A DNA stretch of 64,000 nucleotides from a virus: IMG/VR virus record IMGVR_UViG_3300024272_000071. The stretch is one strand, 5' to 3'. Made by a program: the position numbers and the translations under genes. The notes below the pieces were generated by a model. That model did no database searches and was not told the DNA's origin. It worked only from the letters and a program-made list of their open reading frames with translations. Shown here piece after piece: positions 26,920 to 43,513 of this stretch (positions within the stretch are counted from its first letter, which is position 1; the number at the start of each line of letters is the position of its first letter).

Positions 26920-27394
26920 CTGTTTACCTGACCTCACTTACTCTTTATGAAAATAAACATGAATAGTAAACAGTTAGGAAACATTACTGAACTTGAAACG
27001 ATGTTGGCATTTCTTAAACTTGGTTATAATGTTCTTACTCCATATGGAGATTGTGAGCGTTATGACTTCGTGGTAGATATTGGCAATAAGTTTATAAGAG
27101 TTCAAAGTAAAACATCTCACTCAACAGATGATGGAGCATCATTCTCATTTAGTGGTAGAAGTTGTAATCGCAAAGATGGGAAAATTGTACACCATCAATA
27201 CACAGCGGATGAAATTGATTACTTCGCAACAACTTTTAATGGAACGACCTATTTGGTTCCAGTAGAAGAGTGCGGAGCGGATAAAAGACTCCGTATTCTT
27301 CCAGCCAAAAACGGTCAAACCCGAGGAATTACTTGGGCGAAAGATTATGAATTGGAGGAAGTAGTAAAGAGTTGGTGAGCTGATGTGTAAGCAA
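26920..27394 (+). mobile_element. intron-like insertion in the tRNA-Asn anticodon loop, almost entirely ORF
   Basis: 475 nt; only ~27 nt 5' and ~16 nt 3' of it lie outside the ORF. Confidence 0.55.
26947..27378 (+). CDS. PD-(D/E)XK nuclease of the Hjc / I-Ssp6803I-like family (paralog 1)
   Basis: E..(15)..YDFVVD..(12)..RVQSKT arrangement gives the E, D and Q/E-x-K catalytic positions; 143 aa; ~40% identical to the ORF at 37027. Confidence 0.55.
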   Translation: MKINMNSKQLGNITELETMLAFLKLGYNVLTPYGDCERYDFVVDIGNKFIRVQSKTSHSTDDGASFSFSGRSCNRKDGKIVHHQYTADEIDYFATTFNGTTYLVPVEECGADKRLRILPAKNGQTRGITWAKDYELEEVVKSW

Positions 27395-27625
27395 CCGCAG
27401 TGTCGTAGGTTCGAGTCCTACACGGGGCGCCAGCACCTCAATGGCCCATGTTGCCTCGGGTCAGAGAGGCGAAGTATTCAAACCGCTAACATGGATTCTG
27501 GCGTGCTAAACTACCACCGGCGCTCTAATTGCAATCCTCCGTACCCAATACGATACTGTACAGAGAGCGATATGTGGCTTAGTGGAAAGCGGTATATAAG
27601 AAAGCAAAGTAAGCACTCCCGCATT

Positions 27626-27700
27626 TGGGGCGTTAGTCAAGCGGCCAAGACGTGGCCCTTTCAAGGCCAAGTCACGGGTTCGACTCCCGTACGCCCTACC
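27626..27700 (+). tRNA. tRNA-Glu (TTC)
   Basis: GGGGCGT/ACGCCCT acceptor; loop CTTTCAA; T-arm ACGGGTTCGACTCCCGT; CCA. Confidence 0.75.
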
Positions 27701-32722: not shown

Positions 32723-32813
32723 AGGGGAGTGGTGTAACGGCAGCACGGCAGACTCTAAATCTGTTAGCCCTCTGAAGGCGTAAGTCAGGGTTCGAATCCC
32801 TGCTCCCCCGCCA
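32723..32813 (+). tRNA. amber-suppressor tRNA (anticodon CTA), class II, Ser-like (G73)
   Basis: AGGGGAG/CTCCCCC acceptor (A1:C72); D-arm GTG-TAACGGCAG-CAC; stem GCAGA/TCTGT; loop CTCTAAA gives anticodon CUA; 21 nt variable arm; T-arm CAGGGTTCGAATCCCTG; G73; CCA. Confidence 0.7.
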
Positions 32814-36687: not shown

Positions 36688-37000
36688 ATCCCAGAGTGCT
36701 AATATACGGGATTTATATAATTGAATTATTTAGATTAAAAGTTTTTAGTGGCGCTCTTCAGAAAGTTCTTTCAATGCACGAAGATTGAATAAGTAGGTTG
36801 AGTGTTGCGCAGGTATATTGAGGCAGATGTGAATGATGGACTCTTGTGGAGCAAGGGTTGGGTGGGCCCAGTACGTTAAGGGCATCAGGTCTGCGGCGTG
36901 TCGTCTTCGGCCGCATAAGTAGTGAAGCAAGCCGAAGTTTGAAGCACTGTTTCAATATACATTGTGCTGGCGTAGCTCAATTGGCAGAGCAGCTGATTTG

Positions 37001-37476
37001 TCAATCAAACTCAGTGAAAAAATGATATGGAATTAACTTCAAAACAAAAAGGTAATCTCACTGAATTACAATGTTTAACTGCATTTTCTCAATGTGGATA
37101 TTCAGTAAGTATTCCTTATGGTGATAATTCTAAATATGATTTTATCGCAGATGTTGATGGACGACTATTAAAAATTCAGGTAAAAACCGCATCATTAAAA
37201 AATGAAGGCGCAATTAAATTTTCTTGTAGAACTACGCATGTTAATTGTGCTGGAGTTAAAAATGAACGGTATTCAAGCAATGATGTTGATTATTTTGCTA
37301 CTTACTGGGAAGGTCAATGTTATCTTGTACCTGTAAATGAATGTTCAGTAGAAAAAACTTTACGATTTGAATATCCTAAAAATGGTCAGAAAAAAGGTAT
37401 TACTCTTGCTTCTGAATATAAATTGGAAATTCAACTACAAAAAGTAAAGGAGGAAGTAGCTGAGCATTGATAGATA
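37001..37476 (+). mobile_element. intron-like insertion in the tRNA-Thr anticodon loop, almost entirely ORF
   Basis: 476 nt; ORF 37027-37470; only 26 nt 5' and 6 nt 3' lie outside the ORF. Confidence 0.55.
37027..37470 (+). CDS. PD-(D/E)XK nuclease of the Hjc / I-Ssp6803I-like family (paralog 2)
   Basis: GNLTELQCLTAF..GYSV..YDFIADV..(7)..KIQVKTA; 147 aa; paralog of the 26947 ORF. Confidence 0.55.
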   Translation: MELTSKQKGNLTELQCLTAFSQCGYSVSIPYGDNSKYDFIADVDGRLLKIQVKTASLKNEGAIKFSCRTTHVNCAGVKNERYSSNDVDYFATYWEGQCYLVPVNECSVEKTLRFEYPKNGQKKGITLASEYKLEIQLQKVKEEVAEH

Positions 37477-37537
37477 AATCAGCAGGTTGGGGGTTCAAGT
37501 CCCTTCGCCAGCTCCAGTTGGCTGAGCGTTCCGTCTA

Positions 37538-37576
37538 AAACCGCTCCGAGAGGCATCTCGCCTCTCGTTTTTTTTA
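37538..37576 (+). terminator. rho-independent terminator
   Basis: GAGAGGCATCTCGCCTCTC + GTTTTTTTT. Confidence 0.6.
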
Positions 37577-37754
37577 GGCATATACAGCAAATTGTTTCGG
37601 CTCGTAGCCGAAGTAGCTCAGATGGTTAGAGCGTCAGACATTGATTCTGAAGGTCGTTGGTTCGATCCCAACCTTAACAATATGCCTAGTATTTTAAAAC
37701 GCTGACTCTGGTCGGCGCGGACACGACAAATCAAAAATGGGTTTAGAAAAATTT

Positions 37755-41938: not shown

Positions 41939-43453
41939 ATGAATTCTATGCTGAATGGTCTGAAGAATGCTACTAACTACACTCTGACCGAAAATGGTGG
42001 TATTACCCATAAGACCACCAAGAGCGATCTGCTTGACATGTTTGCTATGGGTGCGGCAATGCGTAACCGCTCTGACTCTGATGTTATGCTGATGTTCCGC
42101 AAGGCGTTTTCCGAGAACCCGGTTTACGCTCTGAAGTGCCTGTTCTATATCCGCGACGTGCGCGGTGGTCAGGGTGAGCGTCGTTTCTTCCGTGTAGTCA
42201 TCAAGGATATGGCTACCTACTCCAAGCCCACTCAGGAAGCTATCGCTCGCAACATGGAGCTGATTCCCGAGTTCGGTCGCTGGGATGACCTGTATGCCTT
42301 TATGGATACTCCCCTGCAGGATAAGGCTCTGAATATCATCAAGCATCAGCTTGCTCTTGATGTTCAGTGCAAGACCCCTTCCCTTCTGGCGAAGTGGATG
42401 CCCTCTGAGAACGCTTCTTCCAAGAAGACCATTCATCTGGGCAATATCACTCGCTCCTATCTGAATATGACCCATAAGGAGTATCGTCGTACTCTGGCGA
42501 TCCTGCGTTCCCGCATCAACATCGTTGAGAAGCTGATGTCTGAGAACCGTTGGGATGAAATCGAGTTCGATAAGATTCCTTCCAAGGCTGGTCTGATCTA
42601 CAAGAACGCTTTCGCTCGCCGCGATATCATCAAGGCGAAGTTCGAGAAGTTTGCTAAGGACGAGACCACCAAGGTGAACGCATCCACTCTGTATCCTTAC
42701 GAGGTTGTGGAGAAGGCTCTGCGTATCAACACCTATCGTCCCGACGAGACTGACCGCGCGATGGTAAACAAGTACTGGGCAAATCTGGCTGACTACTTCA
42801 ATGGAGCCAACCTGAATGCTCTGGCTGTTGTGGATACCTCTGGTTCCATGCACGGCACCCCCATCAACGTAGCTATCTCTCTCGGCATGTACTGTGCCGA
42901 GAAGGCTGGCGGTCCTTTCGCCAACCACTACATTTCCTTCGCTTCTCGTCCTCAGCTGATTGAGTGCGAAGGTGTGGACTTCGTCGATAAGGTGCATCGT
43001 ATCTATCGGACCAATCTGGTAGATAACACCAACATCGAGGCTGTCTTTGATCTGCTCCTGGACACCGCTAAGGCGAATAAGTGTTCTCAGGACGACATGC
43101 CCCAGAACATCCTGATCATCTCCGACATGGAGTTTGACTCTGCTTCTCGCGGCGGTTCCTATAACTGGCGTACTGGCAAGTATGAGGGTAGCTACGGCTT
43201 CACTCAGGCTCAGGCTGATACTGTCATGGAAGGTATCGCTCGTAAGTGGGCGGCTGCAGGCTATAAGATGCCTCACCTGATCTACTGGAATGTGGATGCT
43301 CGTCAGAACAACATTCCTATGATCGGCAACGGTCCTATCTCCTATGTGTCTGGCTTCTCTCCTTCCATCTTCCAGAGCATCATCACCGGCAAGACTGGCT
43401 ATGAGCTGATGATGGAATGCCTGAACAAGGAGCGCTATGCTCAGGTTCAGTAA
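41939..43453 (+). CDS. TROVE-like helical domain + C-terminal vWA domain protein (Ro60/Rsr-like RNA-binding protein candidate)
   Basis: C-terminal MIDAS motif AVVDTSGSMHG with vWA-like downstream region; ~295 aa N-terminal helical domain resembling Ro60; RBS AAAGGAGAAA. Confidence 0.45.
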   Translation: MNSMLNGLKNATNYTLTENGGITHKTTKSDLLDMFAMGAAMRNRSDSDVMLMFRKAFSENPVYALKCLFYIRDVRGGQGERRFFRVVIKDMATYSKPTQEAIARNMELIPEFGRWDDLYAFMDTPLQDKALNIIKHQLALDVQCKTPSLLAKWMPSENASSKKTIHLGNITRSYLNMTHKEYRRTLAILRSRINIVEKLMSENRWDEIEFDKIPSKAGLIYKNAFARRDIIKAKFEKFAKDETTKVNASTLYPYEVVEKALRINTYRPDETDRAMVNKYWANLADYFNGANLNALAVVDTSGSMHGTPINVAISLGMYCAEKAGGPFANHYISFASRPQLIECEGVDFVDKVHRIYRTNLVDNTNIEAVFDLLLDTAKANKCSQDDMPQNILIISDMEFDSASRGGSYNWRTGKYEGSYGFTQAQADTVMEGIARKWAAAGYKMPHLIYWNVDARQNNIPMIGNGPISYVSGFSPSIFQSIITGKTGYELMMECLNKERYAQVQ

Positions 43454-43513
43454 GACATATGCCTCGGATATTCTCGAATGTTCGGGGCAATTTTTCTATT
43501 TGGGAGGCCCGAC

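What the first reader, a model, noticed from the sequence alone, without database searches (positions are those of the whole stretch)
36965..37516. Second copy of the same architecture: tRNA-Thr(TGT) split at 36/37 by a 476 nt insert carrying a paralogous PD-(D/E)XK ORF
Same position (36/37), same orientation and the same nuclease family (about 40% identity to the Asn copy), in a different tRNA. The ORF ends only 6 nt before the 3' exon, and the 5' flank between exon and ATG is 26 nt. The intron start (CAAT) again pairs with ATTGA near the intron end, leaving an unpaired TAGAT. Finding the element twice, with diverged sequence but conserved position, points to a functional and mobile element class rather than assembly noise.
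Basis: seen in the sequence. Interest (0 to 1): 0.85.

Follow-up and report, generated by a model that had tools for sequence, protein, structure and literature searches.

The report
Ribozyme-less mobile intron in phage tRNA
A phage threonine-tRNA gene is split exactly after its anticodon by a 475-base mobile insert that carries only a homing-nuclease gene and two short arms that pair with each other and with the anticodon; it has no self-splicing ribozyme, so it looks like a kind of tRNA intron not yet described for bacteria or their viruses.

Summary
tRNA-Thr(UGU) spans 36966-37516 and is interrupted between nt 36 and 37 by 475 nt (37002-37476). The insert's 147-aa ORF belongs to the I-Ssp6803I homing-endonuclease family (PF11645, E=2e-31) and is 42% identical to the ORF that splits tRNA-Asn(GUU) at 26889-27432.

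About 45 related loci have the same layout in tRNA-Thr, Asn, Lys, Ile, Gln and an ochre-suppressor tRNA, always at 36/37. They come from viral contigs, Bacillota MAG contigs and the cultured Enterococcus phage EFP01. About 30 sibling phages of EFP01 carry the exact intronless allele, so the element is mobile.

Only 25 + 6 nt are non-coding. No group I or II match appears even at E<=10. There is no terminal G and no bulge-helix-bulge motif.

Instead, the anticodon plus the first 7 intron nt pair with the last 10 intron nt. An internal loop and a second helix follow, enclosing the ORF. Covariation is strong: 89-93% of cells paired against 26-44% in slid controls.

The window also encodes an RNA ligase, a kinase and phosphoesterases. 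Best reading: a ribozyme-less mobile tRNA intron removed by protein enzymes. Splicing itself is inferred, and the nuclease is unknown.

The parts
36966..37001 (+). tRNA-Thr(UGU) 5' exon, tRNA positions 1-36; anticodon TGT at 36999-37001
   Evidence: Sequence. ARAGORN finds a split tRNA at 36966-37516. The spliced product is a canonical tRNA-Thr(tgt).
37002..37476 (+). Insert (intron), 475 nt, between tRNA positions 36 and 37. It holds 25 nt of 5' arm, the ORF, and 6 nt after the stop codon.
   Evidence: Junctions were assigned from the anticodon stem (5/5 bp), U33 and A37. There is no Rfam group I, group II or self-cleaving ribozyme hit at E<=10.
36999..37008 (+). Helix A, 5' strand: anticodon U34 G35 U36 plus intron nt 1-7 (CAAUCAA)
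   Evidence: 9 of 10 positions pair with 37467-37476. Across 35 loci aligned only on the splice sites, 89.2% of cells are paired against 37-44% in slid controls. The covariation score is 0.866 against <=0.15.
37010..37015 (+). Helix B, 5' strand (CUCAGU), after the single unpaired A37009
   Evidence: Pairs with 37459-37464. All six helix B pairs are standard pairs in at least 11 of the 13 Thr/Ile loci, and five of the six show changes on both sides (for example CUCAA/UUGAG, CUUAA/UUAAG, UUAUU/AAUAA).
37027..37470 (+). Homing-endonuclease ORF, 147 aa, I-Ssp6803I / PDDEXK_5 family. Active-site residues E13, D38, Q51 and K53 are conserved.
   Evidence: Pfam E=1.9e-31. PDB 2OST E=8.8e-10. These residues are invariant in 18 intron ORFs. 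There are 604 homologues at E<1e-5.
37459..37464 (+). Helix B, 3' strand (GCUGAG), inside the last codons of the ORF; followed by the unpaired C37465 A37466
   Evidence: In L003, L004 and L006 the stop codon moves upstream, yet the sequence GCATTGATAGATA is kept as non-coding.
37467..37476 (+). Helix A, 3' strand (UUGAUAGAUA). It contains the ORF stop codon UGA at 37468-37470. The last 3 nt pair with the anticodon.
   Evidence: Position 34 against the last intron base is G-C in 21 loci and U-A in 13, never unpaired. Positions 35 and 36 behave the same way, with G.U wobbles.
37477..37516 (+). tRNA-Thr(UGU) 3' exon, positions 37-76 including the encoded CCA
37547..37575 (+). Intrinsic-terminator-like hairpin plus T-run, 30 nt after the tRNA
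   Evidence: 8-bp stem, 6 G-C pairs, TTTTTTTT.
26889..27432 (+). Paralogous element. tRNA-Asn(GUU) exon 1 is 26889-26924, the intron is 26925-27392 (468 nt; ORF 26959-27378, or 26947-27378 if the upstream in-frame ATG is used), and exon 2 is 27393-27432.
   Evidence: The ORF is 42% identical. The layout is the same, but the internal loop differs (5' CUGAC / 3' CUGAUGU).
50133..51575 (+). ATP-dependent RNA ligase (PF09414) with an N-terminal PHA02142 OB domain; candidate sealing enzyme
   Evidence: Pfam. It is 44-46% identical to annotated RNA ligases of tRNA-rich Bacillus phages. Its link to the intron is inferred, not shown.
54715..56096 (+). AAA_33 P-loop kinase (54715-55299) and calcineurin-like phosphoesterase (55491-56096); candidate RNA end-healing enzymes
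   Evidence: Pfam. RlaP, an 'RNA repair pathway' nucleotidyltransferase, lies at 46795-47640. Further phosphoesterases lie at 47640-48449 and 53351-54196.

Best explanation
The insert is a mobile tRNA intron with no ribozyme. It is a homing-endonuclease gene of the I-Ssp6803I family, bracketed by two short RNA arms, inserted between positions 36 and 37 of the anticodon loop.

DNA level. The nuclease is inferred to cut intronless tRNA genes in the anticodon-arm region. The element is then copied in by repair, which gives the presence/absence pattern seen among sibling phages.

RNA level. The precursor folds so that the anticodon stem continues into one long rod. U33 pairs with A37. The anticodon and intron nt 1-7 pair with the last 10 intron nt (helix A). 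A small conserved internal loop follows, then helix B, which closes off the ORF.

Splice sites. Both lie on this rod. The 5' site is three base pairs up on one strand. The 3' site is at the foot of helix A on the other strand. The cuts would therefore leave a 3-nt 3' stagger centred on nucleotide 35.

Inferred mechanism. Nothing in the insert can encode a known ribozyme, so I infer that protein enzymes remove it. An endonuclease that reads the shape of the rod makes the two cuts; its identity is unknown (host, phage or the intron protein itself). An RNA ligase then joins U36 to A37. The phage's own ligase at 50133-51575 is a candidate, with the neighbouring kinase and phosphoesterases healing the ends if needed. 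A host ligase such as RtcB is the alternative.

Shown: the architecture, the family membership of the ORF, mobility, absence of known ribozyme signatures, and covariation of the rod. Inferred: that mature tRNA forms at all, the cleavage chemistry, and which nuclease and ligase act.
For: 1. Precise insertion at 36/37. Spliced products are canonical tRNA-Thr and tRNA-Asn.

2. Same layout in about 45 loci and six tRNA species: Asn, Thr, Lys, Ile, Gln and Sup-UUA.

3. Mobility. EFP01 carries a 463-nt insert at T36|A37 of a tRNA-Asn that is uninterrupted in about 30 sibling phages at 97-98% identity, with no target-site duplication.

4. No ribozyme.
- Only 31 non-coding nt remain.
- No Rfam hit to group I, group II or self-cleaving families at E<=10.
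- The last intron base is A or C, never G.
- Published bacterial tRNA group I introns are 184-894 nt, and those that encode a nuclease exceed 500 nt (PMC13011429).

5. The structure is selected at the RNA level.
- Helix A plus the anticodon stem are 89.2% paired against 37-44% when slid. The covariation score is 0.866 against <=0.15, and 0 of 500 shuffles reach it.
- With helix B included, 92.7% are paired against 26-40%.
- The intron's last three bases track the anticodon of each host tRNA. They include G.U wobbles, which DNA-level repeats would not explain.
- Minimum-energy folds of all 36 junction constructs give the same rod.

6. The arm sequence is kept even where it is no longer coding.

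7. In this window the intact tRNAs cover 19 amino acids. Asn is supplied only by interrupted genes.

8. An RNA ligase, kinase, phosphoesterases and RlaP are encoded 9-19 kb downstream.
Against: - No RNA data: mature tRNA, excised intron and end chemistry are all unobserved.
- No candidate splicing endonuclease was identified. A 3-nt stagger does not fit RNase III, which leaves 2 nt (own knowledge). There are no BHB bulges for an EndA-type enzyme.
- EFP01 and its relatives have no detectable homologue of the window's ligase. None is annotated in the roughly 100 kb of Schiekvirus genomes inspected.
- Intact exons could simply reflect recent homing into functional genes, rather than selection after insertion.
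- Ligase co-occurrence on the same contig was seen only once (L015 and L077), in a narrow search.
- Arms joined across the ORF could not be searched against ribozyme models.
Confidence: 0.55

Rival explanations
1. Selfish nuclease gene that simply disrupts a dispensable tRNA gene. The rod exists for the element's own benefit. For example, it could be a double-strand RNase processing or stability site that frees or regulates the nuclease mRNA from the highly transcribed tRNA precursor. The tRNA halves are never rejoined.
For: - Homologues can be free-standing next to tRNA genes: phage My1 and MAG loci L204, L205 and L207.
- EFP01 is viable, and its siblings show that the phage tRNA-Asn is a single copy that might be dispensable.
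- Helix B sequesters the region just upstream of the start codon. The stop codon lies in helix A, which suits regulation of expression.
- No splicing nuclease was found.
Against: - Pairing runs exactly to the splice junctions and includes the three anticodon bases, re-adapted for six different anticodons. A mere processing stem need not do this.
- Asn would be the only amino acid missing from an otherwise complete phage tRNA set.
- All host exons still fold as canonical tRNAs.
- The insertion always leaves a clean 7-nt loop on removal.
Confidence: 0.2
2. The intron-encoded PD-(D/E)XK protein is itself the splicing endonuclease. Between the tRNA core and the internal loop, the rod is a 17-bp duplex centred on nt 35. 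It would mimic in RNA the enzyme's roughly 17-bp DNA target, the anticodon-arm gene. The enzyme would cut both strands with the same stagger it uses on DNA, leaving 3'-OH and 5'-phosphate ends for direct sealing by the Rnl-type ligase.
For: - The I-Ssp6803I family recognises a 17-bp target (PMC3424549).
- In Thr, Ile and Gln introns the rod has 8 bp on each side of nt 35.
- The left half of the rod (27-36 paired with 37-43 and the intron end) necessarily has the sequence of the DNA target's left half.
- The element would carry its own splicing factor, which would explain its spread into phages of different families.
- The PD-(D/E)XK fold also includes tRNA-splicing endonucleases.
Against: - Cleavage of double-stranded RNA by a restriction-like, metal-dependent enzyme of this family is unknown (own knowledge).
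- The right half of the rod does not resemble the 3' half of the target across loci (checked by eye output: L008 and L010 do not match).
- In Asn/Lys introns the distance from nt 35 to the loop varies by 1 nt.
- The cleavage geometry of I-Ssp6803I could not be verified, because the papers are not held.
Confidence: 0.15
3. Cryptic self-splicing. Either the two arms form a new small ribozyme, or a degenerate group I-like core is hidden inside the coding sequence.
For: - The internal loops are conserved in sequence within each type: A/CA in Thr/Ile; CUGAC/CUGAUGU in Asn/Lys; GA-rich/AGUAA in Gln.
- Rfam searches cannot see a motif split by a 440-nt ORF.
Against: - Three different loop types serve the same architecture, which argues against one catalytic core.
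- The splice sites lie in Watson-Crick helix.
- There is no terminal G, and no invariant U-G pair at the 5' site: position 36 is G in Gln and A in Sup.
- ORFs diverge to 33-65% identity with no Rfam hit at E<=10.
Confidence: 0.07
4. Assembly or annotation artefact: chimeric contig, or chance juxtaposition of tRNA fragments and an ORF.
For: None found.
Against: The architecture is the same in about 45 independent contigs from many samples, and in a cultured, completely sequenced phage.
Confidence: 0.01

Closest known systems
Group I intron of cyanobacterial tRNA-fMet encoding I-Ssp6803I (and PF11645-bearing group I introns in tRNA-Arg(UCU))
   Same: Same nuclease family (PF11645; 2OST E=8.8e-10; conserved D...QxK). 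The element sits in a tRNA anticodon loop and is a mobile insert.
   Different: - The cyanobacterial intron is 655 nt for a 150-aa ORF, which leaves about 200 nt of ribozyme (PMC1995217). It sits at 33/34 (PMC13011429).
- Here 31 nt are non-coding and the site is 36/37.
- Here there is no group I signature and no terminal G.
- Here the ends pair with each other and with the anticodon, instead of forming P1/P10.
Archaeal enzyme-spliced (bulge-helix-bulge) introns, including rRNA introns that carry LAGLIDADG homing-endonuclease genes, and archaeal/eukaryal pre-tRNA introns with an anticodon-intron helix (own knowledge; reviews PMC6379350, PMC10485636 listed, not read)
   Same: - Works alike in outline: there is no ribozyme.
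- A short structural motif made from both intron ends defines the splice sites.
- The ORF sits in the loop.
- The anticodon is paired with intron sequence.
- Ligation needs a separate RNA ligase.
   Different: - There are no 3-nt bulges and no 4-bp central helix. The anticodon pairs are continuous.
- The position is 36/37, not 37/38.
- The host is a bacteriophage of Bacillota.
- No EndA homologue was seen among the window ORFs scanned.
- The nuclease family differs.
Free-standing homing endonucleases in phage tRNA clusters (T4 SegB, PMC2330249, title and abstract; PF11645 genes beside tRNAs in phage My1 and in MAGs)
   Same: A nuclease gene living in a phage tRNA island, probably targeting tRNA genes. 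Some close homologues are free-standing.
   Different: Here the gene is inside the tRNA, with arms adapted to the anticodon. SegB is a GIY-YIG enzyme and lies between genes.
Phage tRNA repair (T4 Pnkp plus Rnl1 against the PrrC anticodon nuclease; own knowledge) and 'RNA repair' gene neighbourhoods
   Same: The window encodes a ligase, kinase, phosphoesterases and RlaP next to a large tRNA set. The repaired bond would lie in the anticodon loop.
   Different: Repair restores damage done by the host. Here the break would be a programmed excision of 475 nt. The link is inferred only.
RNase III processing stems of phage transcripts (own knowledge)
   Same: A long, imperfect double-stranded rod of about 25-30 bp with an internal loop, and cuts on both strands.
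   Different: RNase III leaves 2-nt 3' overhangs. The exon boundaries here imply 3 nt.

Membership tests
PD-(D/E)XK homing endonuclease, I-Ssp6803I family (PF11645) | Sequence match to the family profile above the curated threshold | tested here: met
   109.4 bits against a cut-off of 26.1, E=1.9e-31, covering 3-137 of 138 profile positions. 2OST E=8.8e-10.
PD-(D/E)XK homing endonuclease, I-Ssp6803I family (PF11645) | Conserved active-site residues (acidic residue ... Q/E-x-K) | tested here: met
   E13, D38, Q51 and K53 are invariant in 18 intron ORFs. They align with YD...QVK of 2OST.
PD-(D/E)XK homing endonuclease, I-Ssp6803I family (PF11645) | Presence/absence polymorphism at a precise site between otherwise near-identical genomes (homing signature) | tested here: met
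   EFP01 against about 30 Schiekvirus phages; exact T36|A37 junction.
PD-(D/E)XK homing endonuclease, I-Ssp6803I family (PF11645) | Site-specific cleavage of the intronless allele | not testable with these tools
   Needs enzyme assays.
Group I intron | Conserved catalytic core (P3-P9, G-binding site) detectable by the covariance model | tested here: not met
   No RF00028 hit at gathering score or at E<=10 in either insert. Only 31 nt are non-coding.
Group I intron | Terminal G at the intron 3' end, and a U at the exon -1 position forming U.G in P1 | tested here: not met
   The last base is A (Thr, Lys, Gln, Sup) or C (Asn, Ile). The exon -1 base is G in Gln and A in Sup.
Group II intron | Domain V/VI RNA and a reverse-transcriptase/maturase ORF | tested here: not met
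   No Rfam hit. The ORF is a 147-aa nuclease.
Archaeal/eukaryal BHB (EndA-spliced) intron | Two 3-nt bulges holding the splice sites, separated by a 4-bp helix | tested here: not met
   Positions 34-36 pair continuously with the last 3 intron bases; two of the three pairs are standard in all 34 distinct sequences, and position 35 is unpaired in a single sequence (L040). Helix A has no bulges. A hand search for alternative BHB registers failed.
Archaeal/eukaryal BHB (EndA-spliced) intron | A tRNA-splicing endonuclease (PF01974 family) available | tested here: inconclusive
   None among 31 window ORFs scanned with Pfam. The rest of the phage and the host were not examined.
RNase III substrate | About 20 bp or more of double-stranded RNA | tested here: met
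   The rod is 5 + 1-2 + 10 + 5-16 bp.
RNase III substrate | Cuts staggered by 2 nt (3' overhang) | tested here: not met
   The exon boundaries imply a 3-nt stagger. The boundaries are unambiguous in the sequence.
Kink-turn / box C-D-like motif (Asn and Lys introns only) | Tandem sheared G.A pairs flanked by a 3-nt bulge and a Watson-Crick stem | tested here: inconclusive
   The 5' strand has CUGA(C) and the 3' strand has CUGAUG(U). These could form G.A, A.G, U.U and G-C, but the bulge is 2+1 nt rather than 3+0. The Thr copy lacks the motif.

The most novel reading that the evidence does not exclude
These elements are a third kind of tRNA intron, besides self-splicing group I/II introns and BHB introns. 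They would be mobile, ribozyme-free introns of bacteriophages. Their splice sites are defined by an anticodon-intron duplex and cut by a protein nuclease, possibly the intron's own PD-(D/E)XK enzyme acting on an RNA mimic of its DNA target. The exons are then rejoined by an RNA ligase. That would be the first enzymatic tRNA splicing pathway in the bacterial world. A cultured model is available: Enterococcus phage EFP01, with intronless siblings.
Probability: 0.5. Interest if true: 0.95.

Novelty: categorically new. Interest (0 to 1): 0.85.

Why it matters
Textbook knowledge, and a 2026 survey of 333 bacterial tRNA group I introns (PMC13011429), hold that bacterial and phage tRNA introns are self-splicing ribozymes. 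Protein-dependent tRNA splicing is treated as a hallmark of archaea and eukaryotes.

A widespread phage intron with no room for a ribozyme, but with a strongly covarying splice-site duplex, would break that division. Several consequences follow:
- Phage RNA ligases and 'RNA repair' cassettes would gain a possible routine job.
- It would explain why standard tools miss tRNA genes in phage genomes. Here Asn and Thr(UGU) were invisible to ARAGORN's default run and to Rfam.
- It would offer a minimal system for how a homing-endonuclease gene can become phenotypically neutral without a ribozyme.
- If the tRNA is not rejoined instead, the elements are still a new case of a selfish gene whose RNA ends adapt to each target's anticodon.

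Because EFP01 and its intronless relatives are in culture, the question can be tested directly.

Tried and rejected
1. Group I or II intron, or a known self-cleaving ribozyme: Rfam found only tRNAs at gathering score and at E<=10. Rejected. Caveat: arms joined across the ORF could not be submitted to Rfam.

2. BHB motif: no register gives 3-nt bulges around a 4-bp helix, and covariation shows continuous pairing. Rejected.

3. The in-register helix is.

4. A DNA-level inverted repeat or target duplication as the source of the terminal complementarity: rejected. The pairs include G.U wobbles, and intronless alleles show no duplication.

5. Structured RNA in the flanks acting as a split ribozyme: the GC-rich spacers at 36703-36965, 37517-37754, 26640-26888 and 27433-27626 are not related to one another and fold only mildly better than shuffles (z from -0.4 to -2.9). 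In EFP01 the insertion brought no flanking sequence. Rejected.

6. The intron 3' end copying its own 5' exon: true only in EFP01 (score 28 against <=16 for other pairs). Not general.

7. ORF-less mini-versions of the Asn intron: 0 hits in viral contigs.

8. Ligase co-occurrence: the window's ligase type is absent from Enterococcus phages. It was found on only one of the intron-bearing contigs in a narrow scan. Inconclusive.

9. Cleavage geometry of I-Ssp6803I: the primary papers are not held. My memory of 3-nt 3' overhangs was therefore not used as evidence.

10. Literature searches for prior descriptions: none found.

11. The three short-insert tRNA-like genes at 20997-21655 as arm-only relatives: they do not show the 36/37 anticodon-helix layout. 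Left unresolved.
Full report
**What is at the coordinates**

The window holds a phage-type tRNA island. ARAGORN finds 33 tRNAs between 22.8 and 39.7 kb, all on the + strand.

- At 36966-37001 lies the 5' part of a tRNA: acceptor GCTGGCG, D arm, anticodon stem GCTGA, loop TT, anticodon TGT.
- At 37477-37516 lies the matching 3' part: AA, TCAGC, variable loop, T arm, CGCCAGC, T, CCA.
- ARAGORN with long introns allowed spans 36966-37516.
- Joining the two parts gives a canonical 76-nt tRNA-Thr(tgt).
- The 475 nt between them (37002-37476) hold one ORF, 37027-37470, 147 aa. This leaves 25 nt upstream and 6 nt downstream.

The boundary is unambiguous if the mature loop is the usual UU-UGU-AA.

**The ORF**

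- It matches Pfam PF11645 (PDDEXK_5) over the whole profile, E=1.9e-31.
- It matches the solved structure of the homing endonuclease I-Ssp6803I (2OST) at E=8.8e-10.
- In an alignment of 18 such ORFs, E13, D38, Q51 and K53 are invariant.
- The large protein database holds 604 homologues at E<1e-5. All 120 listed come from metagenomic assemblies.
- The paralogue in the window is 42% identical. It lies in a tRNA-Asn(GUU): exons 26889-26924 and 27393-27432, intron 468 nt, again between positions 36 and 37.

**Recurrence and mobility**

Queries with the two ORFs returned 43 viral contigs and 10 loci from genome collections.

- In nearly all close relatives the ORF is flanked by tRNA halves.
- Junction assignment places every insert at 36/37.
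- The host tRNAs are Asn(GUU), Thr(UGU), Lys(UUU), Ile(GAU), Gln(UUG) and a UUA suppressor.
- One contig carries two such introns, Thr and Lys, 1.3 kb apart (L011 and L026).
- The split genes in the genome collection are on Bacillota MAG contigs (L201-L203).
- More distant homologues are free-standing beside an intact tRNA-Thr(UGU) in Patescibacteria and DPANN MAGs (L204, L205, L207). Another is free-standing beside tRNA-Ile in phage My1.

The cultured Enterococcus phage EFP01 has the same architecture in its tRNA-Asn.

- A query made of EFP01's exons and flanks, joined, matches about 30 other Schiekvirus genomes in one piece at 97-98% identity, where the region is annotated tRNA-Asn. EFP01 itself matches in two pieces.
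- The alignment with phiSHEF16 shows an exact insertion between T36 and A37 with no duplication.
- For Thr, the uninterrupted anticodon arm occurs in at least 120 viral contigs. Whole uninterrupted genes are up to 93.4% identical to the spliced product.

The element is therefore real, mobile and site-specific.

**No ribozyme**

- Rfam finds nothing but tRNAs in either region, at gathering thresholds and at E<=10.
- The non-coding part is 31 nt.
- The intron never ends in G. The exon base before the 5' site is not always U.
- For comparison, the I-Ssp6803I intron is 655 nt for a 150-aa ORF (PMC1995217).
- In a 2026 survey, all bacterial tRNA introns were group I (184-894 nt; those with nuclease genes exceed 500 nt) or, rarely, group II. 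PF11645 genes were found only inside group I introns, at 33/34 of tRNA-fMet and in tRNA-Arg(UCU) (PMC13011429).
- In EFP01 the insertion brought in nothing beyond the 463 nt, so no ribozyme is supplied by the flanks.

**What the ends do instead**

In every locus the anticodon and the first ~7 intron bases are complementary, in register, to the last ~10 intron bases.

In the Thr copy the pairs are:
- U34-A37476
- G35.U37475
- U36-A37474
- C-G
- A x A (mismatch)
- A-U
- U-A
- C-G
- A-U
- A-U37467

Then come one unpaired A (37009) opposite C37465-A37466. Helix B follows, CUCAG(U) at 37010-37015 with (G)CUGAG at 37459-37464, and it closes off the ORF. U33 can pair with A37, so the anticodon stem runs on into the rod. 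Minimum-energy folds of 36 junction constructs all give this rod.

The first test used an ungapped alignment of 35 loci positioned only by the splice sites. The named structure was the anticodon stem plus the 10-bp helix A.
- 89.2% of cells form standard pairs, against 37-44% when the partner strand is slid by 1-3 columns.
- The covariation score is 0.866 against <=0.15.
- All 15 pairs show changes on both sides.
- No shuffle in 500 reaches the observed paired fraction or covariation score.
- Position 34 against the last intron base is G-C in 21 sequences and U-A in 13, never unpaired.
- Position 35 shows U.G, G.U, U-A, A-U and G-C.

The wobble pairs and the absence of a target duplication argue for selection on RNA, not for a DNA repeat.

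The second test used the 13 Thr/Ile introns with fixed offsets for helix B.
- 92.7% of cells are paired, against 26-40% in slid controls.
- The covariation score is 0.712 against <=0.12.

Where the stop codon has moved upstream (L003, L004, L006), the 3' arm is kept unchanged as non-coding sequence.

The internal loop comes in three types that follow the nuclease clades:
- A / CA in Thr and Ile;
- 5' CUGAC / 3' CUGAUG(U) in Asn and Lys, resembling box D / box C and perhaps a kink-turn;
- a GA-rich strand opposite AGUAA in Gln.

**Geometry of the splice sites**

The 5' site lies after the third base pair of helix A. The 3' site lies at the foot of helix A on the other strand. The implied cuts are staggered by 3 nt (3' overhang) and are symmetric about nucleotide 35.

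In the Thr, Ile and Gln types, 8 bp separate nt 35 from the tRNA core on one side and from the internal loop on the other. This is a 17-bp duplex. The I-Ssp6803I family is reported to read a 17-bp DNA target (PMC3424549).

- The layout is not a bulge-helix-bulge motif.
- It does not fit RNase III's 2-nt stagger.
- I could not identify the nuclease.

**Context that bears on mechanism**

Downstream in the window lie:
- an RNA ligase (50133-51575; PF09414 with an N-terminal OB domain; 44-46% identical to annotated RNA ligases of tRNA-rich Bacillus phages);
- RlaP (46795-47640);
- an AAA_33 kinase (54715-55299);
- three calcineurin-like phosphoesterases;
- a DUF2828/DUF7788 protein;
- a major-vault-protein-like protein.

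This is the make-up of an RNA heal-and-seal kit. It could finish a splicing reaction whichever ends the nuclease leaves, but it could equally serve only against host anticodon nucleases.

EFP01 and its relatives have no homologue of this ligase. None is annotated in the 100 kb of Schiekvirus genomes I read. A phage ligase is therefore not a universal partner.

Within the window, intact tRNAs cover 19 amino acids and Asn is present only as interrupted genes. This favours the view that the interrupted genes are used.

**Interpretation**

Firmly supported:
- a family of mobile elements built from an I-Ssp6803I-type nuclease gene plus two arms;
- insertion at 36/37 of phage tRNA genes;
- RNA ends that have adapted to each host anticodon and form a conserved rod;
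- absence of any known self-splicing apparatus.

I rank the explanations as follows.
1. A protein-spliced intron that yields functional tRNA: 0.55.
2. A selfish insertion whose rod serves only the nuclease mRNA, with the tRNA lost: 0.2.
3. A variant of (1) in which the intron protein itself cuts the RNA: 0.15.
4. A cryptic new ribozyme: 0.07.

No paper in the searchable library describes such elements.

**Comparison with known systems**

- The nuclease is a member of a known family.
- The element works most like archaeal enzyme-spliced introns that carry homing-endonuclease genes, but it fails the BHB membership test.
- It shares family and habitat with the cyanobacterial tRNA-fMet group I intron, but it fails every group I test.

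I therefore file the nuclease as a new member of PF11645 and the intron architecture as new. Splicing itself remains to be shown. EFP01 and its intronless siblings make that experiment straightforward.

Noticed in passing
window 20997-21122, 21129-21246, 21541-21655: Rfam calls three more tRNA genes (41-47 bits) with 43-54 extra nt in the anticodon arm, which ARAGORN's default run misses. The third looks like a second tRNA-Asn(GUU) whose anticodon stem is interrupted between positions 28 and 29 by 43 nt. The first has a long variable arm and a CGGTCT direct repeat at its insert ends. None shows the 36/37 anticodon-helix layout or a BHB motif by hand.
   Followed up: partly
window 21271-21537 (+): An 88-aa ORF between the short-insert tRNAs has a weak RelE/ParE-toxin match (PF05016, E=8e-4, below the curated cut-off). 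A small RNase-fold protein inside the tRNA island is a possible lead for the missing nuclease.
   Followed up: no
window 41939-56096: A cluster typical of 'RNA repair' neighbourhoods: DUF2828/DUF7788 (vWA-like), major-vault-protein-like (823 aa), RlaP, three metallophosphoesterases, RNA ligase, DUF5662 and an AAA_33 kinase.
   Followed up: partly
window 21672-22829 and 41939-43453; L212 20318-21406 and 11627-13156: The AAA ATPase inside the tRNA island and the DUF2828 protein are 42% and 32% identical to an 'ATPase' and an 'RNA-binding protein' that flank the tRNA island of Enterococcus phage EFDG1. This is a shared accessory module of tRNA islands in unrelated phages. It is also present in intronless phages.
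   Followed up: partly
window 37611-37675: A tRNA-like element (Rfam tRNA, 45.9 bits, model positions 5-66 only). It has almost no acceptor pairing and A instead of U at position 33. It is enclosed by a longer stem (AGGCATAT...ATATGCCT) just after the tRNA-Thr terminator. It may be a tRNA-mimic RNA rather than a tRNA.
   Followed up: no
window 32723-32813; L032 and L038 intron ORFs: The window encodes a CTA-anticodon (amber suppressor) tRNA with a long variable arm. ARAGORN labels it 'Pyl'. In two related contigs the intron nuclease ORF contains in-frame TAG codons at conserved positions. Some of these phages therefore appear to read TAG as sense.
   Followed up: partly
L002 (Enterococcus phage EFP01) 966-989 versus 937-960: In EFP01 only, the 3' end of the intron (TATGTTGAAACGATATTATGGCTG, still inside the ORF) is 20/24 identical to the D-arm/anticodon-stem part of its own 5' exon. 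No other locus shows this.
   Followed up: partly
L009 1270-1970: A nested arrangement. The 5' part (GCTGGCGTAGCTCC...) and the 3' part (T arm plus TACCAGCACCA) of a degenerate tRNA enclose about 115 nt, a complete tRNA-Thr(tgt) and the nuclease ORF. It may be a decayed or rearranged copy of the element.
   Followed up: partly
window 37450-37459, 27354-27363, and the same place in most related introns: The string GGAGGAAGTA, which looks like a Shine-Dalgarno sequence, is conserved at the nucleotide level 15-30 nt before the intron end in families whose proteins are only ~40% identical. It may just encode the conserved E-E-V, or it may have an RNA role.
   Followed up: no
window 36998-37026: A weak sigma-70-like match whose -35 hexamer TTGTCA spans the exon-intron junction and whose -10 ends at the ORF start (9/12 matches). 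The number of such sites in the region is at chance level.
   Followed up: no
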